A stretch of 64,000 nucleotides of DNA. Origin: Ostreococcus lucimarinus. Lineage: Eukaryota. This document shows, in pieces, positions 3,301 through 60,129 of this stretch (its first letter is position 1; each line of letters starts with the position of its first letter). The stretch lies in assembly GCA_000092065.1 (NCBI GenBank), contig CP000587.1. The stretch is one strand, 5' to 3'. The position numbers were made by a program, and so were the translations under genes. The notes under the pieces were generated by a model. It searched no databases. It saw only the letters and a program-made list of their open reading frames with translations, and was not told the origin of the DNA.

Positions 3301-6300
3301 AGCAATTGAGCTTGCACAAGAAGCCTTGGAGGACAATGATCCAGATCCACTTCCGGTACCTATATTTGGCGTGATGTTCCCTGTCATCGCGCACGCTCTA
3401 CTTCTTCCTGAAGCTCCAAAGAGTTTGCGCGTTGATGCTCTCGGTTTACTTGCAGCACACGCCGGTGAAGATGAAGACGGTGTGCCAATCTTGCCGAGCG
3501 CCGCGGCCGCTGTACGACTGTTGTTGAACACGCTCGCGAATGCGACACCAGATCTAGTAAACATAGCAAAACCCATTCTGTCAGACGTGTCGCGATACTT
3601 GCGCACGAGCGATGACGTTCTCGCATTGGTCGACGGTGTCGAAAGTGAGTACAGAGCGGTTAGAGGTGCCTCTCTATCAGGTTTGCTGAACGCGCCGCTG
3701 AATTTTGCTTCCATGGAACAGCAAACGGCTAACATCGCGATTGCAAAGCTTTTTATTGCGCGTTTCGACGCCGACGAAGTAAATAAGCAGACGGCTGAAG
3801 AGGTTTGGGTATTGTGCGGACTTTCAGACACGATTCCGTCTCCTGTGGATGTCCTGCCGTTTCTCACACACGCAAGCGGTTCCGTTAGGGGGAGTGCCGT
3901 GGAAGCTTTTGCGGCGACGATTGCTGCGCAAGAAAACGGCATGTCGATTTCACTACCGAAGCTTTTCGGCGAATTCAACTCATGTGAGCATGGGTATGGG
4001 CGAGAAGCGCTCATCAAGGGACTCGGCGCTTGTACGCCAAGTCTTAGCGCCCGTGATCTCCCGCTCGTATCCACATTTCTCACAAAGGTTCTCTCTGATG
4101 TCGACGCTGGCGTGCGTTCCGCGACGGTAGAAACCGGACGCTTGATGATTGACGCACACGGTGCAGAGCACACGCAACAGCTACTTGCTGTTTACGAAGC
4201 ATACTTCGACCGAGGAGGAAGTAGAGGTAATCTATCGGAAGAAGCAGAGGATCACGTTCGACAAGGCGTCATCGTTTTTCTCGGCGCACTTGCGGTGCAC
4301 TTAGACAAAGAGGATGAGAAAGTTCGCGCAATCTTGACTCGCTTGCTCGAGGTTTTAAGCACACCATCCGAAGCTGTACAGCGTTCAGTGGCGGATTGTT
4401 TACCTCCTCTCATGAAGAAGCTCAGTGCTGAAGAGCAACAAGCTTTGGTTGATGCTCTGCTGCAGCAACTCACGACGAGCCATGCGTATGCCGATCGGCG
4501 AGGCGCGGCGTTTGGCCTGGCAGGTGCCGTCAAGGGCATCGGTATGAGCAGTCTCAAAGGCATGAACATCATGGACACTCTGAAGGTAGCGATCGAGGAC
4601 AAAAAGAATCCCGAATCGAGAGAAGGCGCGGTTATGGCTTTTGAATTATTCTGCACGAGGTTGGGCAGGCTTTTTGAGCCATACGTCGTGAACATTCTGC
4701 CCATGCTTCTAGTTTGTTTTGGCGACGTTACTGCCCCCGTTCGCGAAGCCACGCAAGCGGCAGCGCGCGTAATCATGGCAAATTTATCTGCGCAAGGCGT
4801 GAAGCTTGTTTTACCGGCACTTCTTTGCGGGGTCGATGACGACAAATGGCGTACGAAACAAGGTTCGGTTCAACTGCTCGGCGCGATGTCAAACTGTGCC
4901 CCGAAACAGCTTGGAGCGTGCTTACCTCAGATCGTGCCTCGTCTGAGCGAAACGTTGATTGATACCCATCCGAAAGTCGTAGAGGCTGCAACGCAAGCCC
5001 TCAAGGCAGTGGGTGACGTTATTCGCAACCCAGAGATTATCGCTTTGAGTAGCTATCTCCTCGGCGCTATTCAAGATCCCACAAGACGTACAAAAGCATG
5101 CTTGGACGTACTGCTCGAAACGACGTTCGTGAACGTGGTCGACGCGCCTTCGCTCGCACTCATCGTACCGGTCTTGGTTCGCGGTTTGCGCGAACAGAAA
5201 GCAGATATGAAGAAGAAAGCGGCTAAGATCGCTGGGAACATGAGTGCTCTCGTCGCCGATCCAAAAGACATGGCTCCGTACATCCCCATGCTCGTCCCCG
5301 AGCTCAAGAAGGCTCTGATGGACCCAATTCCAGAAGTACGCGGCGTTGCCGCGCAAGCACTCGCAGGACTGATTAACGGTCTAGGTGAAGAGTACTTTGA
5401 AGACTTACTCCCGTGGATGATGCGCGCCATGCAAAGCGACGGCACAAGCGTGGAGCGCTCTGGCGCCGCGCAAGGTTTGTCTGAGTGCTTGGCCGTACTT
5501 AGCACGGATCACTTCGACGCGCTCTTCCCAGAAATCCTTTCTGGTTGTGCCAACGCATCATCGGCCGTGAGAGAAGGTCACTTGACTCTACTGCGATTCC
5601 TACCGATATCACTTGGTGACGTCTTTGAGGCACATCTCGTCGACGCACTAGCGTGCGTTCTCCAGGGCTTGGCTGATGAAGACGAACCCGTTCGAGAAGC
5701 CGCGCTGAACGCGGGCAGAGTATTTGTCGAAGAATTTTCTCACAGTGGTAGTTCGCTAGATTTGATTTTGCCGGCGATCGAAGACGGTATCGTCTCCGAT
5801 AACTGGCGCATTCGCCAATCCTCTGTTGAGCTTCTCGGTTCGATGTTGTTCCGCATTATCGGCTCGAGTGGCAAGGTGCGCGTTGAGGGTGGTGATGATG
5901 CCGAAGGCATCTCCACCGAAGCACAAGGACAAATGCTCAGTAATACGTTGGGTGAAATTCGTCATCACAACTTGCTTGCCGCTGTTTACATTCTTAGATC
6001 GGACGGAACTTTGAGCGTGCGAAACGCTGCAGTTCACATTTGGAAAACCGTCGTCGCGAACACTCCGAAGACTCTCAGAGTCATATTACCTTTACTCATG
6101 CAGCGCGTGATTTCAACAATGTCTGGCGGTTCGGACGATCGTCAGCAGACTGCGAGTCGATGTCTTGGCGATGTCGTGCGAAAGCTGGGCGAACGCGTGC
6201 TCGTATCCGTCTTGCCAATCATGCGAGAAGGGTTAAAGAGCGAGCTCGCCGAGCATCGCGAAGGCGTCGCCTTGGGTTTGGCTGAAATATTATTTGCGGC

Positions 6301-31669: not shown

Positions 31670-31740
31670 GCGCCAATGGTTTAGTGGTAGAATTCCTGTT
31701 TCCCAAACATGTGGCCCGGGTTCGATTCCCGGTTGGCGCA
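31670..31740 (+). tRNA. tRNA-Gly (anticodon CCC)
   Basis: A 71-nt cloverleaf. The 7-bp acceptor stem GCGCCAA/TTGGCGC is perfect. The D-arm is GTTT-AGTGGTA-GAAT. The anticodon loop is TT-CCC-AA. The T-arm is CCGGG-TTCGATT-CCCGG. The discriminator is A. The anticodon stem has one C.U mismatch. Overall it closely resembles eukaryotic tRNA-Gly. Confidence 0.75.
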
Positions 31741-52414: not shown

Positions 52415-54526
52415 CTAGTAAATTGAGGGATGGGAGCTCGAGGAAGATACCGGCGGAGGACGGCCTTTCCAATTCTCAGAGAGTCGCTTGCCCGAGGTCA
52501 ACATCGATCCAGACGACGTCCTGGACAGAGGTGTATCACCCGATCCGTCGTGTGACATTCTCGAGCTTACGTTGAACTGTGATCTCTTTGAAAGCGATGG
52601 TTGACGCATCATGCTTTGCGGTAAAACCACAGGCGACCCACGTTCGCCGATGAACGACGCCACCGTGCCGTCGAACACTCGATTCACAGCTTCGTCCGTG
52701 ACGCAGAAAGACTTGATTCGCTCCATTTGCAACGTTTCGACCTTTGACAAAAGATCGGTGTGACGGAATAACATGATGTCAAACAACGCGCTCTCTTCGG
52801 ATCCGCGCTGGATACCGAGTTCAGCGAGCGTCGCGTCGCGCTCAAATTTCAGAGTGGAGCGTACGCCTTGCAATTCGTCGGCGACAGTCACGAGCCCGGC
52901 GCTCAAGCACGCGCTGATGAGCTCATCCAAGCTAATCATTCCACGATCGTGTGCCAACCCCATGAAACTTCTTGGCGCGGTTTCGTTTAAGAATTCAGAA
53001 AGCGAGCGAGAAGAATCCGAATTCGCCGTCAGATCCTCGTAACCGGGCGACATGGCGGTGTCATCGATACCGGGCGATCCCTCGGGAGAGTTCTGTGCGG
53101 ACTTGAGTAAGACCGCGCGATCATACTCTGTCTCGTCTACGTCCGCGGGAATGTTAAATCGTTCGAACGCGTCGGCGAGCTTGTTGAAAGATTCGCGCCT
53201 TTCTCTAGAACCGTCGGTAAAACTCCCTTCCTGGTGAGCCTCTCGCGCGTGCAACTCTCGGTACAACTTGTCGAGAACATCATGCGTTTGCGTCGCCTCT
53301 GCGTATCCCCTCGCGCCTCTTATCGTGGAATCTGAGCCAGACGTCGAGCCTCCAGCGTCGGAGTATCGCACCTTGTAAACCTTACCTCGCCGTACCGACA
53401 CGTCGGCGCGCATACCCAGCCATCGTCTCAGCACTTTCACATCCTGCGGTCGCAGCAACTCGGCTAACAACACTGCGGTGTGCTTTTCTAAACTTGCGTG
53501 CATAGTCAGCGCCGATAGTTGCCGTCTCGCTTCCCGTAACATGTGTTTCGGGACTTGAAGTTGCTCCGCTTGCGCCGCTCGCCTGTGCGCGGCATTTTTC
53601 TTTTGCTTGAGGCACGGATGCGCCGCCGCTTGCGCGGCGTTCATGCGATTCACGGGATTCAACCTGAGAAGCGAATGGACTAAATCACGAGTCAACGCAC
53701 TGATGGATTCATCCAAACTGTCGTACTCCGCACGAAGGACTTGAAATACCCCCTCGACTGAGTTCTGAAACGGCATCTTCCCCGAGCTCAACCAGTACAT
53801 AAATATCCCCACGGACCACATGTCCGACGCTTGCGAGTACTCACCACGCTCTTCGACTTCGGGCGCCTGAAACGAAGCCGCTCCCATGGGCGATGCCGAT
53901 GGTAAGCGCATTCCGGTTTCCGGACGAAGCTTTCGCACTCGGCCGAAATCAATGATTTTCAGCGTCACGTTTGCCGTCGCGTCGTCTGGCGCGTGTCGCA
54001 CCATGACGTTTTCCAGCGCCAAGTCTCGAAATACGTAGTCTTTCGCGTGCACGTACGCCACCGCGTTCGCGAGCTGTCTCATCAGATCCAACCGCACCTC
54101 GTGTTTCTTGTCTTCATTCGCGTCTTCGTAATCATTCAGCATCGTCAAATACTCCAACAACGACGTCCCGTCGACGAGCTCCATCACCAAGTGCACCTCT
54201 GCCGACGTTTGATACGCGCCGACGAACGCGACGACGTTCGGATGCGACATCGCGCTCAACGCCTCCACCTCCGCGTACGCCGCGATGCGATGCTCGTCCT
54301 CTCCGAACGCTCCCACGTGCGTTTCCTTCATCGCGCGTCGCGTCCCGTCGCTCGCCTCGACCTCGAACACCGTCCCCTGCTTCCCTCCCCCGATTTTCCT
54401 CCGCGCGACGTAATTCGCGTCCCATCGCTCGTCGATCCGCACCGCGCTCGGCGCCGACGTCGACGCTCGCGCGTCGCCCGCCTCCGCCGTCCCTCGCGCG
54501 CCCGTCGTCGACGCCGCGCACCCCAT
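52415..54526 (-). CDS. N-myristoylated Ser/Thr protein kinase (CAMK-like) with a long C-terminal non-catalytic region
   Basis: The N-terminus MGCAAS is a consensus N-myristoylation site. Kinase subdomains are present (VAIK-like RAMKE, HRDLALENVM, DFG as IIDFGRV, APE as APEVEE). The start is at the ATG at 54526. The upstream ORF extension is low-complexity. Confidence 0.8.
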   Translation of the reverse strand: MGCAASTTGARGTAEAGDARASTSAPSAVRIDERWDANYVARRKIGGGKQGTVFEVEASDGTRRAMKETHVGAFGEDEHRIAAYAEVEALSAMSHPNVVAFVGAYQTSAEVHLVMELVDGTSLLEYLTMLNDYEDANEDKKHEVRLDLMRQLANAVAYVHAKDYVFRDLALENVMVRHAPDDATANVTLKIIDFGRVRKLRPETGMRLPSASPMGAASFQAPEVEERGEYSQASDMWSVGIFMYWLSSGKMPFQNSVEGVFQVLRAEYDSLDESISALTRDLVHSLLRLNPVNRMNAAQAAAHPCLKQKKNAAHRRAAQAEQLQVPKHMLREARRQLSALTMHASLEKHTAVLLAELLRPQDVKVLRRWLGMRADVSVRRGKVYKVRYSDAGGSTSGSDSTIRGARGYAEATQTHDVLDKLYRELHAREAHQEGSFTDGSRERRESFNKLADAFERFNIPADVDETEYDRAVLLKSAQNSPEGSPGIDDTAMSPGYEDLTANSDSSRSLSEFLNETAPRSFMGLAHDRGMISLDELISACLSAGLVTVADELQGVRSTLKFERDATLAELGIQRGSEESALFDIMLFRHTDLLSKVETLQMERIKSFCVTDEAVNRVFDGTVASFIGERGSPVVLPQSMMRQPSLSKRSQFNVSSRMSHDGSGDTPLSRTSSGSMLTSGKRLSENWKGRPPPVSSSSSHPSIY

Positions 54527-55041
54527 CTCCGCGCCGTTCGATGGATTCGCGCGTCGGTCGCTTCGCGCCTCGGTCGCTTCGCGCGCGCGTCCCGTCGCGC
54601 GTCGTCGCGCGCCCTCGCGCGTCGTCGCGCGTCGTCGCGCGCCCTCGCGCGTCGTCGCGCGTCGTCGCGCGCCGTTCGCCGCCGCCCGCGCGCGCGTCCC
54701 CGACCGCGCGCCGCGCGCTGACGCCTCGCGACGCTTCGGCATCGCGCGACGCTTCGCTTCGCGCGAATCTCGCGCGGGCGTGGGTTCGGGCATGCGGCGC
54801 GCGTGGGTTCGGACATTCGGCGTTTATCTCTGTATGCACATACAGTCATACACCGTATACGATCACACACGCGCGCGCATCGCCTTTTCAGCGATCACAC
54901 CGCGGGATCGCGGCCGTTTGAAATCTCGCCGTTTGAAATCTCGCGCACGATGCCCGCGACGACGGATGCGCGCGCGCCGGCGACGGCGGCACACGCCGAC
55001 GCGATCGCTCGCGACGCCGCGCGACGCGGACGCGCGGCGAA

Positions 55042-58000
55042 ATGTCCGCGCCGCGCGCGGGGGTCGCGCGCGGCGCGCGAAACGCCGTGGGCGCGCCGCG
55101 ATGGACGCGCGGACGCGACGGCGACCGGCGAAAACCTCTGGCGACGCGCGCGCGCGCGCGCGACGACGGCCGGCGACGACGCGCGACGGGGACGCGATCG
55201 GCGCTGACGCGCGGGAGCGAGGGCGTTGAGGTGGCGAAACTGCAGCAGCGGCTCGCGGACGAGGGAATCGAGGACGGGGGCGCGGTCGATGGGTGCGTGA
55301 CGGCGATGAGCCGTTTATTTGAATTCGCGGCGCGCGCGCGGGACGCGGGACGCGAGGGCGCGAACGGGGAGGGCGGACGCGCGATCGAGCGGACGAGGAT
55401 GGAGAGGAGGGCGTTTGTGGACGATGGGGGGCGTTCGATGGGGAGACGCGACGCGGGATGACTGACGAGACGACGAGACGCGCGCGCGGCGATAGGACGT
55501 TTGACGAGGCGACGGAGCTGGCGGTGAAGACTATGCAGACGCGATACGGATTGCCGGCGAACGGGCAGTGGGGGGCGCTGGAAAGAATGATGTTTGAGGA
55601 GGTTGGGATTCATACCGATACGCCGAGGTTGGAGGCGTTGGCGCCGGCGAAGATGGGGACGCTGGCGGCGCGCGTGAGCGCGAGCGGCGGCGCGAGAGAG
55701 ACGCTGGCGCCGACGCTCGGCGCGAGAGACGGGGTGATGAGCACGTTCGGTTCCGCGGTCGCCGGCGCGGCGCTCGGTTTATCCGCGGCGTTTGTGATCG
55801 GTGCGGCGGATAACGCGCGTCGAGGGGGAGGCGTGCACGATTTCGTCGAAGACGCGCGAGTCAACTTGCTCGGGTTGGCGGGACTGTTTAAACCGTCGAA
55901 TTTCAAACGCCCGACGCGCGCGACCGCGGCGTACGATGACGACGTGGGTGGCGAGCAATACGAGGACAGACGTGATACGCGACGAAACGATGGTTGGGCG
56001 GACGATGACTGGCGCGGAAACGATCCCAGGCGCGGACCGGACGGCGGCATGCCGCCGGGCGCGAGCGAGGAGTACTACGGATACGACGCCCAGTACCACA
56101 CCTCGCGCACTCGCCGCTTGATGGCGGGCGCCGTATCCGCGGTGGTGGAGAGCGAACGACCGAAGCAGCGTCAAGGAACGTCGCGGCGACCGGGTGGAGG
56201 CGGTGCCAGGGCGCAGCGCGCACTCGCGGGCATGGATTTACAGCGCAAGCAGCAAGAGTTGGTAAACTCTCCCGAGCTCGAAGTTGAAGTCGAAGTCGAA
56301 GTCGGGGCGTCTTCGCGACCGATGGCGACGATGATGCAGCGCGTGCGACAAGGCTGGGATGCGAGCTTAGATGCGGTAGGCAACGTCATTCCGGATGCTA
56401 TCCCGCTCATCGGCAACGGGAGCGATTTCACCGCGCGAGCGCAACGCGAGCGCGACTTGAACGCTCGGCTCGCCGAGGCGCGTTACTACGCCGAGCTGGA
56501 ACAGCAAAAGCGCCTTAAGGCTGAAAAGGCGTTCAAGCAAAGTCATCAAAAGTGGCTCGATGCGCAGGCGGCGACGCGCGAGGTGCGCGCCCAGGCAGCG
56601 GCCACGGCGGCAAAATTGGGCGAACTCGAGGAGCGTCTGTTTAGCGAAGACATCTTCGACGACCACCCGGTGATGAACAAGGTGACGCAGTTGGAGAATT
56701 TGCTCAAGCAAGAAGCCAGAGAAGACAAAACGGCGGAACAACTGAAGAGTGAGCTCACTCAACTCGAAATGAACACCACGAGTCGCGTGAAGGATCTCGA
56801 GGAACAGGTCGCCGAGTTGCAACTCGAGCTCGAGACGCGCCCGGATTTACCGCGAGACATCTCCGCTCGCTTGGAAGCTCTGGAAAGCGCGATGACGAGC
56901 GGCACGTCTTACGATGCGGAATCGGCCACGGCGCGCGCAACTGGCTTGCAACAAAGCATTTCAGACGTGGGGGATGCGCTCGTGGAACTTCGCGACGGCA
57001 TGCGAGACGAGATGTACAAGGTGCAGAGCGAGCTCAACAACATCCATCCGCTCATGGATCACGGCGCTGGAAGAATTGATATTCTCTTCGCTAAACTTAC
57101 CGCGTTGGAGCACTCTGTGGATGCCATCAGCGACGGTGCGGCTTCGCAAATCGGACGCTTGTCTGCACAAATCGAACGACTGGAGAAGGCCCTCGCGGCG
57201 AGCTCGGGCGTCGTCTTCGAACCGTTCCCTGAGATCGAAGATATTGCCATCGAAGATCCGGCTCCGATGGTGGAGGAATTCGTCGAGAAAGAAGACGAAG
57301 TCACCACCGACATGTTTGCCCCGGTCGAGGAAGAACTCGCGGTTGAGGAAGACGTCGCGAGCAGCGTCGACAGCGCCGCGACGGATTTCTTTAGTTTGTT
57401 CCAAGACTCGGCGCAAATCACGCAAGCTATGCCGACGGCTGAACCGCCCCTCGAAATCGCGCCGATGCAAAAGGAAATCGTCAAAGAATCCGGCGTTTTA
57501 CCGCGCATCGCGACTGGGCGCGAGATCATGATCCAAGGTTTCCACTGGGAAAGCCACAACTTGGATTGGTACAAAATTGTGCAAGACAGACTTGGCGAAA
57601 TGAATCAAGCGGGATTTACTCAAGTTTGGTTGCCGCCTCCGGCGGATTCTCTCGCACCGCAAGGCTACTTGCCGCGCAATATGTATTCGTTGAATAGTGC
57701 GTACGGCTCTGAACAGGCTTTGCGAAACCTCATCGCGAACTGCAAGGAGCACGACGTTTTGCCCGTGCTCGACGCCGTGTTGAACCATCGCTGCGCCACG
57801 CACCAGGGCGCTGGGGGCAAGTGGAACCGTTGGGAAGGAACTGGTATGGACTGGGGTGAGTGGGCCATCGATAATAGGAATCCTGACTTCGCAGGTCAGG
57901 GTAACCACCCGACGGGCGATGAGTTCTCGGGGGCGCCCAACATCGATCATACGAATGAACGCGTTCGCAGCGACTTGGCCAAGTGGTTCCAATGGTTGCG

Positions 58001-58697
58001 AAACGACATCGGCTTTGGAGGAGTGCGCTTTGACTTCTCGAAGGGTTACGGCGGACAATTCGCCGGAGAGTACATCAAGGCGATGGATCCCGAGTTCGCG
58101 GTCGGAGAATACTGGGACACGCTCGCGTACGGCGCGGGATTGGAGTACAATCAAGACGCTCATCGTCAACGGATTGTTGACTGGATTGACGCGGCAGGCG
58201 GGAACTGCACCGCGTTTGATTTCACCACAAAAGGTATCCTTCAAGAGGCGTGTGGACGCTCCGAGTTCTGGCGTCTCATCGATAGTGAAGGACGCGCTCC
58301 AGGTGTGATTGGCTTGTGGCCGGCGCGCGCCGTGACGTTCATCGACAACCACGACACCGGCTCCACGCAAGGTCACTGGCCGTTCCCGAACGACAAAGTC
58401 GCCATGGGCTATGCCTACATCCTGACTCACCCCGGCACGCCGTGCGTGATGTGGGATCACTACTTCGATTGGGGTGAAAAGTTGTCGAACAACATCAAGA
58501 CGCTGATGGAAGCGCGTCAAAGTTGCGGCATTCACAGTCGAAGCAAACTTCAAATCATCGCCGCCAACGACGGTTTATACGCCGCTATCGTCGACAACAG
58601 GATGGCAGTCAAGCTTGGCCGCGACCACTGGTCGCCCGCCGGCGACGACTGGACCCACATTTGCGGAGATAATGACTGGAGCGTGTGGCGTCGTTAG
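55042..58697 (+). CDS. AMY: Plastid-type alpha-amylase (GH13) with an N-terminal PG-binding-like domain and a long coiled-coil region; join(55042..55292,55496..58697)
   Basis: The C-terminus has plant alpha-amylase motifs (GFHWES; LDAVLNHR; GVRFDFSKGYGG; GEYWD; FIDNHDTGSTQ). Exon 1 (transit-peptide-like, ...GVEVAKLQQRLADEGIEDGGAVDG) and exon 2 (G|TFDEATELAVKTMQTRYGLPANGQWGAL) together rebuild a PG_binding_1-like motif (DGxFxxxTxxAV..GL..DG.VG). The intron at 55293..55495 is 203 nt. It starts GTGCGTG, has a GATGACTGACG branch, and ends GATAG. Confidence 0.85.
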
Positions 58698-58995: not shown

Positions 58996-60129
58996 ATGCG
59001 CGCCATCGCTTTCGCACCGTCCGCGCGCGCGCGCGCGCCCGCGCGCGCGCGCATTCCCGCTCGACGTCGCGGCAGGGACGAAAATAGCACCGCGCCGAGA
59101 CGCGTTCAAACGACGCTCGTGACGCCGCGGACGCGCGCGCTCGAGCGCGGACGCGTCGCGCGCACCGTCGCGGATGAGTACGCGATGACATCCGAGCGCG
59201 AGGGCGCGAACGAGGGTTTCGGAACGAACGAGGAGATGTCAGACGACGTGCGCGCGTTGACGACGCTCGTCGCCGATAGCGACGGCGGCGCGGCGTTGGG
59301 GGCTGACGCGCGGAAGGACGCGGATGCGATGATAGGGAAACTCGAGAGCGTGGGTGCCGACGCGATGGTGAAGCCGAACGACGATCCGAAGATCTTCGGG
59401 TATTACGATGTGAGTTACGTATCCGTCGGAGAGAAGCAAGTGGGAAATCCCGCGGGCGGACGGTTTCGGTCGCCGTTGGGACGGTTTTTGTTCAAGACGA
59501 TCGGGCTCGAGCAAAATTTGTTCGCACCTAATAAGATTGAGAATCGCGTGGCGTTCACGTTGTTTGGGTGCTTGCCGGGGGAGGTGACACTGGAAGGAAC
59601 GTTTGCGCCGGCGGAGGGCGTCGACGACGGACGTACGGTGAAGGCTTCGTTCGGACCACCGGGAATCTCCGTCGCGGGCGGGCCGAAGTTGCGAATCGGC
59701 CCAAAGTCTAGCGTCGTACTCAGCACGACGTATTTGGACGATCACGTCCGTTTGGGGAAAGGATCGCGCGGGAGCTTGTTCGTGTTCACGAGAAAGTCTG
59801 AGGAGAAGGCGGAGCGTGATCACAGACGGTGGGGCATCGGAGGATTGGCGATCGCCATCATGCTCTTAACCGCGCTCGGTCTCGGTATTTTCGGCGTGCA
59901 CGAGCTTAGAACGACGAGTCATACGCTGTATTCGGTAACGGTCGTGCTTGCGTCGGCGATTTCTCTCGCCATGGCGTACATTTTGCGCGACGGCGGAATC
60001 GTCGCCGAGGACGCCGACCTCGACGACGACGTTGGCGAGTTGAGCGAACAGCAAAAGGCGTTCCTCTCCAGAGGACGCGGCGACGGCGAGAATAAAGGCG
60101 AAAACGTGTTCAGTTCGCAAAAGGCGTAG
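58996..60129 (+). CDS. Plastid-lipid-associated protein / fibrillin (PAP_fibrillin) with a C-terminal TM helix
   Basis: Transit-peptide-like N-terminus. The fibrillin C-terminal signature is present (TTYLDDHVRLGKGSRGSLFVF resembles TYLDE.LRISRGD.G..FVL). An extra C-terminal hydrophobic segment (GGLAIAIMLLTALGLGIFGV) follows. Confidence 0.7.
   Translation: MRAIAFAPSARARAPARARIPARRRGRDENSTAPRRVQTTLVTPRTRALERGRVARTVADEYAMTSEREGANEGFGTNEEMSDDVRALTTLVADSDGGAALGADARKDADAMIGKLESVGADAMVKPNDDPKIFGYYDVSYVSVGEKQVGNPAGGRFRSPLGRFLFKTIGLEQNLFAPNKIENRVAFTLFGCLPGEVTLEGTFAPAEGVDDGRTVKASFGPPGISVAGGPKLRIGPKSSVVLSTTYLDDHVRLGKGSRGSLFVFTRKSEEKAERDHRRWGIGGLAIAIMLLTALGLGIFGVHELRTTSHTLYSVTVVLASAISLAMAYILRDGGIVAEDADLDDDVGELSEQQKAFLSRGRGDGENKGENVFSSQKA

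What the first reader, a model, noticed from the sequence alone, without database searches (positions are those of the whole stretch)
55042..58697. Alpha-amylase with an unusual architecture (transit peptide, PG-binding-like domain, 450-aa coiled coil, GH13) in which an intron splits the PG-binding-like domain
The ORF track starts this gene at 55458. The upstream ORF (55042..55292) ends exactly at a GTGCGTG donor. The intron (203 nt, with GATGACTGACG branch and GATAG acceptor) rejoins in frame to give ...IEDGGAVDG|G|TFDEATELAVKTMQTRYGLPANGQWGAL. This is a complete PG_binding_1-like motif that neither ORF contains alone. The rest is a long E/A/L-rich coiled coil followed by a plant-type alpha-amylase catalytic domain. 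Plant plastid AMY3 carries CBM45 domains instead. A PG-binding-like domain plus coiled coil is an atypical starch-targeting module.
Basis: partly seen in the sequence, partly recalled or inferred. Interest (0 to 1): 0.6.

Follow-up and report, generated by a model that had tools for sequence, protein, structure and literature searches.

The report
Split-domain, possibly membrane-tethered alpha-amylase gene
The proposed intron is real: this Ostreococcus lucimarinus gene encodes a 1150-residue plant-type alpha-amylase with an unusual front end found only in its close relatives; the O. tauri copy is already correctly annotated, and what the front end does is untested.

Summary
Exon 1 (55042-55292), a 203-nt phase-2 GT-AG intron (55293-55495) and exon 2 (55496-58697) give one 1150-aa protein. 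Only the spliced product contains a whole PG_binding_1 domain: 48.9-50.7 bits against 27.4 bits for the downstream ORF alone and nothing for the upstream ORF.

The same intron, at the same codon and phase, is present in four other Ostreococcus lineages and a Micromonas-like locus. A Bathycoccus-like genomic contig breaks at the same point with an acceptor-like end. The deposited O. tauri gene (XP_022839411.1, chromosome 7) carries exactly this intron. The window is O. lucimarinus CCE9901. Its public model (XP_001418685.1, 632 aa, partial) lacks exon 1 and the catalytic domain.

- The junction reads ...AVD-G-TFDE, one G fewer.
- The helical region is about 260 aa in six segments, not 450.
- A conserved hydrophobic helix (residues 165-190) between the PG-binding-like domain and the rod was missed.
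- No starch-binding module was found.
- Ostreococcus lacks a peptidoglycan pathway, so wall binding is unlikely.

The GH13 domain has all three catalytic carboxylates. My best reading, which is inferred, is a plastid alpha-amylase held at a membrane or by a partner through its N-terminal module. It is a new variant of a known enzyme class, of moderate interest.

The parts
55042..55292 (+). Exon 1 (251 nt). It encodes the start codon, a 56-residue Arg/Ala/Gly/Thr-rich presequence (55042-55209) and the first helix of the PG_binding_1-like domain. It ends with the first two bases (GG) of the Gly-84 codon.
   Evidence: 55042 is the only in-frame start after the upstream stop. Exon-1 homologues ending '...LQQ.L.deG......G|GT' occur in L001, L002, L004, L005 and L007.
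55293..55495 (+). Spliceosomal intron, 203 nt, phase 2. Donor GTGCGTG at 55293-55299, CTGAC branch-like motif at 55462-55466, acceptor TAG at 55493-55495. It contains the ATG at 55458 that ORF callers use as the start.
   Evidence: The position and phase are the same in six loci. Intron sequence identity is 0.53 against 0.49 for a shuffled control, while flanking exon 2 is at 0.76. The deposited O. tauri gene has the homologous 181-nt intron.
55496..58697 (+). Exon 2, from the third base of the Gly-84 codon through the stop codon at 58695-58697.
55222..55577 (+). PG_binding_1-like domain (residues 61-111), interrupted by the intron.
   Evidence: Pfam PF01471 at 48.9-50.7 bits against a cut-off of 23, profile positions 2-51 of 57. 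SleB 6tci at E = 2e-7, aligned across the junction. 50% identity to bacterial repeats. Coordinates.
55737..55814 (+). Conserved Gly/Ala-rich hydrophobic helix (residues 165-190, core 170-188). It is a candidate single membrane span.
   Evidence: The 19-residue Kyte-Doolittle mean is 1.84, against a next best of 0.92. A matching segment lies at the equivalent position in every Ostreococcus and Micromonas-like orthologue (KD 1.67-2.22); the Micromonas-like C-terminal flank carries a +3 to +5 charge. A simple biological-scale sum is 0-2.5 kcal/mol against at least 6.5 for any other window, and the hydrophobic moment is 0.06. The low-confidence AF2 model makes it a helix.
55815..56423 (+). Region of mostly low complexity, rich in Arg, Asp, Gly and Tyr (residues 191-393). 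It contains motifs that are invariant across Ostreococcus: PPGASE.YYG.DAQYHT.RTR, and VGASSRPM...IPD.IPL.GNGS.
   Evidence: Alignments. AF2 pLDDT is below 50 and little secondary structure is predicted.
56424..57206 (+). Helical rod (residues 394-654). It starts at the family-wide motif S[DE]F[TS]ARA..ERE and comprises six helices of 15-73 residues separated by Pro/Gly breaks.
   Evidence: AF2 model of window 56202-57239: helices at fragment residues 75-335, with the first 73-residue helix at pLDDT 88-95. Heptad-period power is raised over about residues 450-670. There is no specific fold match. The region is conserved into the Micromonas-like and Bathycoccus-like orthologues.
57207..57518 (+). 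Acidic linker (residues 655-758) containing the invariant Ostreococcus motif S.D.AATDFF.LFQ.
   Evidence: The motif-bearing unit is tandemly duplicated in the L002-type species.
57519..58694 (+). Plant-type alpha-amylase: GH13 catalytic barrel plus the C-terminal beta domain (Alpha-amyl_C2 at 58524-58688). Catalytic Asp930 at 58032-58034, Glu955 at 58107-58109, Asp1037 at 58353-58355.
   Evidence: PF00128 at 44.9 bits and PF07821 at 68 bits. The domain aligns end to end with barley AMY2 1amy at E = 9e-115, with all three carboxylates aligned. Coordinates.

Best explanation
This is the Ostreococcus lucimarinus orthologue of a two-exon gene confined to the Mamiellales picoalgae (Ostreococcus, Micromonas-like, Bathycoccus-like). 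It encodes a large plant-type alpha-amylase.

Shown here:
- A 203-nt phase-2 intron splits the codon for Gly-84 inside a PG_binding_1-type three-helix domain.
- The spliced 1150-aa protein reads, in order: Arg/Ala-rich presequence; PG-binding-like domain; conserved hydrophobic helix; disordered region; a six-segment helical rod of about 260 aa; acidic linker; and a catalytically complete GH13 alpha-amylase with its C-terminal beta domain.

Inferred:
- The presequence takes the protein into the plastid, where Ostreococcus keeps its single starch granule.
- The hydrophobic helix anchors the protein in a plastid membrane, with the rod and the amylase in the stroma.
- The rod dimerises and acts as a spacer, so hydrolysis happens at a defined place on the granule rather than everywhere.
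- The PG-binding-like domain works as a protein- or ligand-interaction module. It does not anchor to a wall, because Ostreococcus has lost peptidoglycan synthesis.

In logic this resembles MFP1, a membrane-anchored coiled-coil protein that positions starch-granule proteins in Arabidopsis chloroplasts. The difference is that here the enzyme is fused to the tether.

My confidence by step: gene model about 0.95, domain architecture about 0.9, plastid location about 0.7, membrane anchoring about 0.5, positioning function about 0.3. The overall figure of 0.55 weights the shown and the inferred parts together.
For: Gene model:
- Splice arithmetic and signals.
- The Pfam score rises from 27.4 to 48.9-50.7 bits only when spliced.
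- The domain aligns across the junction to SleB and 1lbu with no gap at the junction and to bacterial repeats.
- The intron position and phase are identical in L001, L002, L004, L005 and L007. The acceptor is unique in four of these loci.
- Removing one 181-nt intron from the deposited O. tauri gene reproduces XP_022839411.1 exactly.
- The Bathycoccus-like contig L009 joins the two exons directly. The 99.9%-identical genomic contig L008 instead has a pyrimidine tract ending in AAAG at that point.

Architecture:
- Pfam hits.
- The hydrophobic helix is conserved in position across genera.
- The helical rod.
- The catalytic triad aligns with barley AMY2.
- The non-catalytic module has only 23 hits among 1.84 billion representative proteins. 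The long ones inspected carry the same layout, and the short ones inspected are fragments of it.

No wall anchoring: the three Ostreococcus genomes and Bathycoccus retain only DDL and MURE of the peptidoglycan pathway (PMC4815162). Arabidopsis pTAC5 is a precedent for a PG-binding domain in a plastid without a wall (PMC4080259).

Tether analogy: MFP1 has a transit peptide, a short TM domain and a stroma-facing coiled coil, and it determines where granules form (PMC10801857).

Timing: the O. tauri gene is on chromosome 7. The only chromosome-7 alpha-amylase listed by Sorokina et al., Ot07g02010, peaks at dusk, which is when the granule is partitioned (PMC3056741). That the two are the same gene is an inference.
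Against: - There is no transcript evidence from O. lucimarinus itself. The exact spliced protein is absent from a 15-billion-protein collection, and the junction sequence is absent from JGI contigs.
- Targeting was not tested, because no transit-peptide predictor was available.
- The hydrophobic helix is Gly/Ala-rich and only marginal on a translocon-type scale (0-2.5 kcal/mol; scale values recalled from memory). It is weaker in the Bathycoccus-like protein (4.3; KD below 1.57).
- In Ostreococcus the charge flanking that helix is about neutral.
- Moving a folded N-terminal domain of about 110 residues back across a plastid membrane is mechanistically demanding.
- Coiled-coil oligomerisation was not modelled. 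The AF2 pTM is 0.23, so how the helices pack is unknown.
- The full-length AF2 model is unusable (pLDDT 36.6).
- No experiment links this protein to any membrane or to the granule.
Confidence: 0.55

Rival explanations
1. Soluble stromal alpha-amylase. The Gly/Ala-rich hydrophobic segment is a buried or self-associating helix and does not span a membrane. The PG-binding-like domain and the rod both sit in the stroma and mediate oligomerisation or binding of regulatory partners, in the way AMY3 is modulated by BAM9 in Arabidopsis.
For: The segment is only marginally hydrophobic on a translocon-type scale and is rich in small-xxx-small motifs typical of helix-helix packing. Its flanking charge in Ostreococcus is neutral. 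pTAC5 shows that a PG-binding domain can function inside the stroma. This reading avoids the difficulty of exporting a folded N-terminal domain.
Against: The segment is by far the most hydrophobic 19-mer in each Ostreococcus and Micromonas-like orthologue. It is uniformly hydrophobic (moment 0.06) and conserved in position but not in sequence. In Micromonas-like proteins it is followed by a +3 to +5 charge cluster, the usual signature of a membrane span.
Confidence: 0.27
2. Envelope-anchored granule-splitting enzyme. The PG-binding-like domain sits in the intermembrane space. It is a relic of peptidoglycan-assisted plastid division in the Mamiellales ancestor and still docks on division-site components or a residual glycan. 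The rod carries the amylase to the stromal side of the constriction, where it cuts the single starch granule in two.
For: The architecture predates the split of Micromonas, Bathycoccus and Ostreococcus. M. pusilla keeps the complete PG pathway. The second half of the domain is among the most conserved N-terminal parts in PG-less Ostreococcus (invariant columns). The granule must be divided together with the plastid at the light-dark transition. The probable O. tauri orthologue peaks at dusk. The Micromonas-like flank charges place the C-terminal part on the stromal side.
Against: This is entirely inferential. Ostreococcus has only DDL and MURE. The canonical DG..G..T ligand motif is degenerate: only Gly and the aromatic residue are invariant across genera. 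A dusk peak equally fits ordinary night-time starch degradation. There are no localisation data.
Confidence: 0.1
3. There is no intron. Translation starts at ATG 55458, as in the RefSeq partial model and all prokaryote-style gene calls. This yields a protein with a truncated, non-functional domain remnant. The upstream ORF is a chance ORF in GC-rich DNA.
For: Public ORF-based models start at 55458. GC-rich DNA produces many spurious ORFs on both strands. No O. lucimarinus transcript was found.
Against: - Exon 1 supplies exactly the missing profile positions 2-22.
- It is conserved as protein in six lineages, while the intervening sequence is not conserved.
- Splice signals sit at the exact point where homology breaks in every locus.
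- The curated O. tauri model uses the homologous splice.
- The ATG at 55458 lies within the branch-site context.
Confidence: 0.03
4. Non-plastid enzyme. The protein is a membrane protein of the secretory pathway or cell surface, or a cytosolic enzyme, acting on glucans outside the plastid.
For: Targeting was not tested. The nearest named plant relatives of the catalytic domain are annotated 'alpha-amylase 2', which from general knowledge is regarded as non-plastidial in Arabidopsis.
Against: There is no N-terminal hydrophobic signal peptide. The first 56 residues carry a net charge of +13, and about 165 residues precede the hydrophobic segment. That arrangement does not suit signal-anchor insertion with the N-terminus outside. 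From general knowledge of green-lineage starch metabolism, starch in Ostreococcus is plastidial.
Confidence: 0.05

Closest known systems
Ostreococcus tauri alpha-amylase XP_022839411.1 / CEF98684.1 / UniProt A0A090M961 (chromosome 7, 1131 aa); probably Ot07g02010 'Aamy3' of Sorokina et al. 2011
   Same: It is the orthologue, about 62-72% identical depending on the region compared. The domain order is the same and the gene neighbourhood is syntenic. It has one intron at the same codon and phase (181 nt against 203 nt).
   Different: It is a different species. The intron sequence and the presequence are not conserved. The O. tauri model is complete, whereas the O. lucimarinus public model (XP_001418685.1) is a 632-aa fragment lacking exon 1 and the GH13 domain.
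Arabidopsis AMY3 (plastidial alpha-amylase with a tandem CBM45 N-terminal extension)
   Same: Both combine a plant-type GH13 catalytic domain and Alpha-amyl_C2 with a long non-catalytic N-terminal extension, and both presumably act in the plastid on starch. The AMY3 side of this comparison is from general knowledge.
   Different: No carbohydrate-binding module was detected here. The extension is instead PG_binding_1, a hydrophobic helix, a disordered region and a helical rod. The nearest named relatives of the catalytic domain are 'alpha-amylase 2'-type and chlorophyte enzymes, so orthology to AMY3 is not established.
[quoted passage not shown]
   Same: Both have a transit peptide, then a short hydrophobic anchor, then a long stroma-facing coiled coil. 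MFP1 determines where starch-granule processes take place (PMC10801857).
   Different: MFP1 has no enzyme domain and no PG-binding domain, and it has a Tat signal next to its anchor. No sequence similarity to it was detected. The resemblance is in design only.
Bacterial and phage cell-wall hydrolases with an N-terminal PG_binding_1 domain (SleB 6tci/4fet; Streptomyces Zn D-Ala-D-Ala carboxypeptidase 1lbu; endolysin 7rum)
   Same: They share a homologous N-terminal three-helix PG_binding_1 domain placed ahead of a hydrolase that acts on an insoluble polymer.
   Different: The catalytic domain here is an alpha-glucan hydrolase, separated from the binding domain by about 650 residues. The host has no peptidoglycan pathway. 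The DG..G..T motif is degenerate.
Arabidopsis pTAC5 (plastid nucleoid protein with a peptidoglycan-binding domain)
   Same: It is a PG-binding-type domain working inside a plastid that has no peptidoglycan wall (PMC4080259).
   Different: It has different partner domains (DnaJ-type zinc finger / disulfide isomerase) and a different process (transcription). It was not compared at sequence level here.

Membership tests
Plant-type alpha-amylase (GH13 catalytic domain + Alpha-amyl_C2) | Match to the GH13 catalytic-domain profile above the curated threshold | tested here: met
   PF00128 at 44.9 bits against a cut-off of 22. The domain aligns end to end with barley AMY2 1amy at E = 9e-115.
Plant-type alpha-amylase (GH13 catalytic domain + Alpha-amyl_C2) | Catalytic Asp nucleophile, Glu acid/base and Asp transition-state stabiliser present | tested here: met
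   D930 (vrfDfskgy), E955 (favgEyw) and D1037 (idnhDtg) align with the corresponding barley AMY2 residues. All three are invariant in the orthologues aligned over the catalytic domain.
Plant-type alpha-amylase (GH13 catalytic domain + Alpha-amyl_C2) | C-terminal beta-sheet domain | tested here: met
   PF07821 at 68 bits against a cut-off of 27, residues 1094-1148.
Plant-type alpha-amylase (GH13 catalytic domain + Alpha-amyl_C2) | Endo-hydrolysis of alpha-1,4-glucan | not testable with these tools
   Needs an enzyme assay.
PG_binding_1 domain (PF01471) | Profile match above the gathering score over most of the model | tested here: met
   48.9-50.7 bits against a cut-off of 23, profile positions 2-51 of 57, and only when spliced. 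The threshold is also met in O. tauri (37.5), the Bathycoccus-like protein (40.3) and the Micromonas-like protein (38.4).
PG_binding_1 domain (PF01471) | Three-helix bundle fold | tested here: inconclusive
   The AF2 model of the O. tauri orthologue predicts three helices (residues 54-65, 80-93, 103-115), but pLDDT is below 50. Sequence alignment to solved domains 6tci, 4fet and 1lbu supports the fold.
PG_binding_1 domain (PF01471) | Binds peptidoglycan in its native setting | tested here: not met
   There is no binding assay. The literature states that the three Ostreococcus genomes retain only DDL and MURE of the pathway (PMC4815162), so a native peptidoglycan ligand is unlikely. This lowers the claim 'binds PG', not the claim of domain homology.
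Spliceosomal intron | GT-AG boundaries with a branch-like motif, and an in-frame, stop-free product | tested here: met
   GTGCGT...CTGAC (30 nt from the acceptor)...TAG. The spliced CDS is 3453 nt with a single terminal stop.
Spliceosomal intron | Position and phase conserved in orthologues while the intron sequence diverges | tested here: met
   Six loci have the same codon and phase 2, with intron lengths of 181-266 nt. Among the five Ostreococcus introns identity is 0.53, against 0.49 for a shuffled control.
Spliceosomal intron | Spliced transcript observed | tested here: inconclusive
   None was found for O. lucimarinus. The deposited O. tauri model uses the homologous splice. A Bathycoccus-like contig, L009, is transcript-like and lacks the intron that genomic L008 has, but the sample type of L009 could not be verified.
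AMY3-type plastidial alpha-amylase | Tandem CBM45 starch-binding modules at the N-terminus | tested here: not met
   No carbohydrate-binding family appeared in the Pfam scan at E up to 1. The N-terminal region is accounted for by other elements. Whether Pfam models CBM45 at all was not checked.
Chloroplast transit peptide | N-terminal presequence recognised by a targeting predictor or cleaved on import | not testable with these tools
   Composition is compatible: 16 Arg, 11 Ala and 7 Ser+Thr in 56 residues, net charge +13, with no hydrophobic signal core. The orthologues have non-homologous presequences of similar composition.
Single-pass membrane anchor | Uniformly hydrophobic stretch of about 19 or more residues that stands out from the rest of the protein and is conserved in position | tested here: inconclusive
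   KD 1.67-2.22, above the classical 1.6 threshold, in Ostreococcus and Micromonas-like proteins. The biological-scale sum is marginal at 0-2.5 kcal/mol, and the signal is weaker in the Bathycoccus-like protein.
Coiled coil | Long helices with heptad periodicity | tested here: met
   Helices cover residues 394-654, with the longest at 73 residues and pLDDT about 90. Power at period 3.5 is up to ten times background over about residues 450-670.
Coiled coil | Forms a parallel or antiparallel oligomer | not testable with these tools
   Only single chains could be modelled. pTM is 0.23.

The most novel reading that the evidence does not exclude
The protein is an inner-envelope-anchored alpha-amylase. 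Its PG-binding-like domain, in the intermembrane space, is a surviving piece of the peptidoglycan-linked plastid-division apparatus of the Mamiellales ancestor. It still docks at the division site, and the coiled-coil stalk delivers the catalytic domain to the stromal side of the constriction. There it cuts the cell's single starch granule in two. That would supply the missing enzyme for the granule division described in O. tauri in 2004.
Probability: 0.1. Interest if true: 0.8.

Novelty: new variant of a known kind. Interest (0 to 1): 0.42.

Why it matters
There are two practical points and one biological one.

1. The public O. lucimarinus CCE9901 model for this gene is a 632-aa fragment. ORF-based gene calls in hundreds of metagenome contigs start inside the intron. 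The correct product is 1150 aa.

2. The case shows that a domain split by an intron can be recovered from sequence alone and then validated by comparing relatives.

3. Biologically, this is a starch-degrading enzyme whose non-catalytic half is not a starch-binding module. It combines a bacterial-type wall-binding fold, a possible membrane anchor and a long helical stalk. This half is conserved across Mamiellales picoalgae, including genera that have lost peptidoglycan synthesis.

These cells keep one starch granule that must be divided with the plastid at every cell division, by an unknown mechanism. A positioned alpha-amylase is an obvious candidate. From general knowledge, O. tauri is genetically tractable, so the idea can be tested directly. 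The module also offers a natural example of a PG-binding domain kept under selection without peptidoglycan.

Tried and rejected
1. Full-length AlphaFold2 model of the O. tauri orthologue. Mean pLDDT was 36.6, which is unusable for fold search, so only its secondary structure was noted.
2. Foldseek of the helical-rod model against the PDB. There was no meaningful match; the best E-value was 3.
3. Exact look-up of the spliced 1150-aa protein and three other spliced models in the 15-billion-protein collection. All were absent.
4. Scans of JGI metagenome contigs for the spliced junction of the window and of the L002-type species. Both gave zero hits, so there is no direct transcript evidence for O. 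lucimarinus.
5. Look-up of the RefSeq partial protein P0030 in the gene-position index, to see how the locus is annotated. It is not on record.
6. Ral et al. 2004 (PMC523392) is not held in the library. Its content is cited only through papers that quote it.
7. Literature searches combining Ostreococcus, alpha-amylase, coiled-coil and transmembrane, or peptidoglycan-binding domain with amylase and Micromonas or Bathycoccus. They found no description of this architecture.
8. The alternative in-frame acceptor at 55477 (185-nt intron). I rejected it because it scores 10 bits lower on PG_binding_1 and has no counterpart in the orthologues.
9. A Tat-type signal. The RR motifs in the presequence lie more than 100 residues from the hydrophobic segment, so they are not a Tat signal peptide (from the sequence).
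10. An introner-element or repeat origin of the intron. I considered this but did not test it, so it is not excluded. What was shown is only that the intron does not align between species better than shuffled sequence and that its position is ancestral.
I worked around this with window and orthologue substrings and with the deposited O. tauri protein.

Full report
**What is in the sequence**

The window is GC-rich (61%) and gene-dense. The longest ORF in the region starts at ATG 55458 and ends at 58697 (1079 aa). An upstream ORF in another frame starts at 55042 and reads to a stop at 55461.

- Cutting at 55292|55293 (GG|GTGCGTGA) and rejoining at 55495|55496 (CGATAG|G) removes 203 nt.
- Exon 1 is 251 nt, so the intron is phase 2.
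- The joined CDS is 3453 nt with one terminal stop and encodes 1150 aa.
- A CTGAC branch-like motif lies 30 nt upstream of the acceptor.
- The ATG that ORF callers use (55458) lies within that branch context, gATGACTGAC.

**Is the splice more than chance?**

Pfam gives a direct test.
- The spliced protein matches PG_binding_1 at 48.9 bits (cut-off 23) over profile positions 2-51 of 57.
- The downstream ORF alone gives 27.4 bits over positions 23-51.
- The upstream ORF alone gives nothing.

A second in-frame acceptor at 55477 would insert six residues, and it scores 40.6 bits against 50.7.

The spliced domain aligns across the junction to solved PG-binding domains: SleB 6tci at E = 2e-7 and the Streptomyces carboxypeptidase 1lbu at E = 1.4e-4, with no gap at the junction. 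It also aligns to each of about eight repeats in a bacterial protein, at up to 50% identity over 58 residues.

**Comparative evidence**

A search with the non-catalytic 758 residues returned nine orthologues at 54-65% identity. All were ORF-called, and all become homologous at exactly 'F/YD..T..AVKT.QT.YGLP'.

I fetched their genomic loci.
- Each has an upstream ORF ending '...LQQ.L.deG......G' followed by GT[GA]CG.
- In L002, L004 and L005 only one acceptor gives an in-frame, stop-free product, and it sits at the homologous codon. L001 and the window also offer that site.
- Intron lengths are 181-266 nt.
- Pairwise intron identity is 0.53 against 0.49 for shuffled sequence. The first 84 nt of exon 2 are 0.76 identical.

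**Identity of the organism and the public models**

The window ORF's first 632 residues are identical to XP_001418685.1, 'predicted protein, partial', from Ostreococcus lucimarinus CCE9901. That public model lacks both exon 1 and the GH13 domain.

The L004 cluster contains the O. tauri proteins XP_022839411.1/CEF98684.1 and OUS47413.1. Both are 1131 aa and have the junction TAEG|TFDE. On the O. tauri reference (CAID01000007.2, chromosome 7, 305276-308852), the gene spans 3577 nt. Removing one 181-nt intron (GG|GTGCGTTT...CGCAG|AACC) reproduces the deposited protein exactly.

The architecture and the intron are therefore already in a curated annotation for the sister species. The exact spliced O. 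lucimarinus protein is not in a 15-billion-protein collection.

**How widely the module occurs**

I searched a profile of the non-catalytic part against 1.84 billion representative proteins and found only 23 hits. The long hits are as follows.
- P/A-rich proteins on contigs of about 59% GC. I call these Micromonas-like from composition only.
- An S/N-rich protein family on contigs of about 45% GC. I call these Bathycoccus-like, again from composition only.

These have the same order of elements, and PG_binding_1 clears its threshold once the first exon is included. The Micromonas-like locus L007 has a unique 201-nt phase-2 intron at the same codon.

For the Bathycoccus-like gene, the 4.1-kb contig L009 carries only this gene and has the two exons joined. 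The genomic contig L008 is 99.9% identical from the first base of exon 2 onward. Upstream of that base it shows a pyrimidine tract ending in AAAG. L009 therefore behaves like a spliced transcript, although I could not verify the sample type. The intron position looks ancestral to the Mamiellales.

**Anatomy of the protein** (residues with window coordinates)

- **1-56 (55042-55209):** Arg/Ala-rich presequence, net charge +13. It is not conserved in sequence between species but is similar in composition.
- **61-111 (55222-55577):** PG_binding_1-like domain.
- **165-190 (55737-55814):** Gly/Ala-rich hydrophobic helix.
  - Its 19-residue Kyte-Doolittle mean is 1.84, against a next best of 0.92 in the whole protein.
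  - It is conserved in position in Ostreococcus (1.67-2.22) and Micromonas-like (1.82-1.90) proteins. In the Micromonas-like proteins it is followed by a +3 to +5 charge cluster.
  - It is uniformly hydrophobic (moment 0.06). On a translocon-type scale it is only marginal (0-2.5 kcal/mol; scale values recalled from memory). It is weaker in the Bathycoccus-like protein.
- **191-393:** mostly disordered, with motifs invariant across Ostreococcus.
- **394-654 (56424-57206):** six helices. The first has 73 residues at pLDDT about 90. Heptad periodicity is raised over about residues 450-670. There is no specific structural relative.
- **655-758:** acidic linker.
- **759-1150 (57519-58694):** GH13 plus Alpha-amyl_C2. 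It aligns with barley AMY2 at E = 9e-115, and Asp930, Glu955 and Asp1037 are in place.

**What the PG-binding-like domain probably does not do**

van Baren et al. state that the three Ostreococcus genomes and Bathycoccus contain only DDL and MURE of the peptidoglycan pathway, whereas M. pusilla has the complete set (PMC4815162). Anchoring to a plastid wall is therefore unlikely in Ostreococcus.

Even so, the second half of the domain is among the best conserved parts of the N-terminal region. The canonical DG..G..T motif is degenerate across genera.

Arabidopsis pTAC5 is a precedent for this domain type in a plastid without a wall (PMC4080259). I found nothing that ties the domain or the rod to starch binding, and no carbohydrate-binding module was detected.

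**Most likely mechanism (inferred)**

- The presequence takes the protein into the plastid.
- The hydrophobic helix tethers it to a plastid membrane.
- The rod and the amylase face the stroma, so the enzyme acts at a defined place on the granule.

The design parallels MFP1, which has a transit peptide, a short TM anchor and a stroma-facing coiled coil, and which sets the sub-plastid location of granule formation (PMC10801857).

O. tauri holds one granule that has to be partitioned with the plastid at the light-dark transition (PMC3056741; bioRxiv 10.1101/2024.10.03.616402). The only chromosome-7 alpha-amylase in the Sorokina list, Ot07g02010, peaks at dusk. That it is the same gene as this orthologue is an inference from chromosome assignment. 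This timing fits both ordinary nocturnal degradation and a role in granule division, so it does not discriminate between them.

**Rivals**

- The hydrophobic helix may be a packing element in a fully soluble stromal enzyme.
- The domain may sit in the intermembrane space as a relic of peptidoglycan-linked division. This is the most novel reading.
- The no-intron reading is now very unlikely.
- A non-plastid location does not fit the highly charged N-terminus of about 165 residues that precedes the hydrophobic segment.

**Comparison with known systems, and novelty**

The catalytic half is an ordinary plant-type alpha-amylase. Its nearest named relatives are plant 'alpha-amylase 2'-type and chlorophyte enzymes of about 640 aa, at 50-55% identity. 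Orthology to AMY3 is not shown, and the defining tandem CBM45 was not found.

The N-terminal module is restricted to the Mamiellales. Four full-text searches found no paper describing it.

I rate this a new variant of a known kind. The sequence and its domains are already in public annotation for O. tauri, so the gene is not newly discovered. What is new here:
- the corrected O. lucimarinus model;
- the ancestral split-domain intron;
- the conserved hydrophobic helix;
- the restricted distribution of the module.

**Limits**

- There are no O. lucimarinus transcript data.
- There is no targeting or TM predictor, no multimer modelling and no experiments.
- The genus labels for the non-Ostreococcus loci rest on base and amino-acid composition only.

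Noticed in passing
window 58996-60129 (+): The gene immediately downstream encodes a 377-aa protein with a PAP_fibrillin match (26 bits against a cut-off of 22) and a hydrophobic C-terminus. A gene of similar size follows the amylase in every Ostreococcus locus fetched, and three of these carry a faint fibrillin hit. From general knowledge, fibrillins are reported partners of the coiled-coil starch synthase SS4 in Arabidopsis, so a functional link is conceivable. General synteny may explain the adjacency.
   Followed up: partly
window 52415-54793 (-): The upstream, divergently oriented gene encodes a 792-aa Ser/Thr protein kinase (Pkinase at 156.7 bits). Its N-terminus carries tandem 'GARRRATTRE' repeats. 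The kinase and amylase start codons are only about 250 bp apart, so the two genes may share a bidirectional promoter region.
   Followed up: partly
L002/L003 about 5700-6000 (protein P0005 residues about 660-740; P0048): In one Ostreococcus lineage the acidic linker before the GH13 domain carries a tandem duplication of a unit of about 38 aa (VEEVTVEEE..EETSSM.SAATDFFDMFQETQRVVDAVP). There are two copies in P0005 and three in P0048. The core S.D.AATDFF.LFQ motif is invariant in all Ostreococcus orthologues and may be a short linear interaction motif.
   Followed up: no
window 55042-55461 (+): The ORF that reads through from exon 1 into the unspliced intron (139 aa) is itself deposited in public collections as a 'hypothetical protein' on 22 contigs (P0020). 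The 1079-aa ORF starting inside the intron is deposited as 'alpha-amylase' on dozens of contigs. This is a systematic artefact of prokaryote-style gene calling on picoeukaryote DNA.
   Followed up: yes
window 56270-56310 (+), residues about 344-353: A short (Glu-Val)n run, ELEVEVEVEVGA, differs between the window and a metagenome variant that is otherwise almost identical (EVEVGVGA in P0001). This suggests population-level variation in the repeat.
   Followed up: no
window 31670-31740 (+): A single tRNA gene (Rfam RF00005, 63.3 bits) is the only Rfam family match in the 64-kb window.
   Followed up: no
window 54888-55613 (-), 57498-58553 (-) and others: Long antisense ORFs of 241 and 351 aa overlap the amylase gene. 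I assume they are the compositional by-product expected in 61% GC coding DNA. They were not searched against any database.
   Followed up: no
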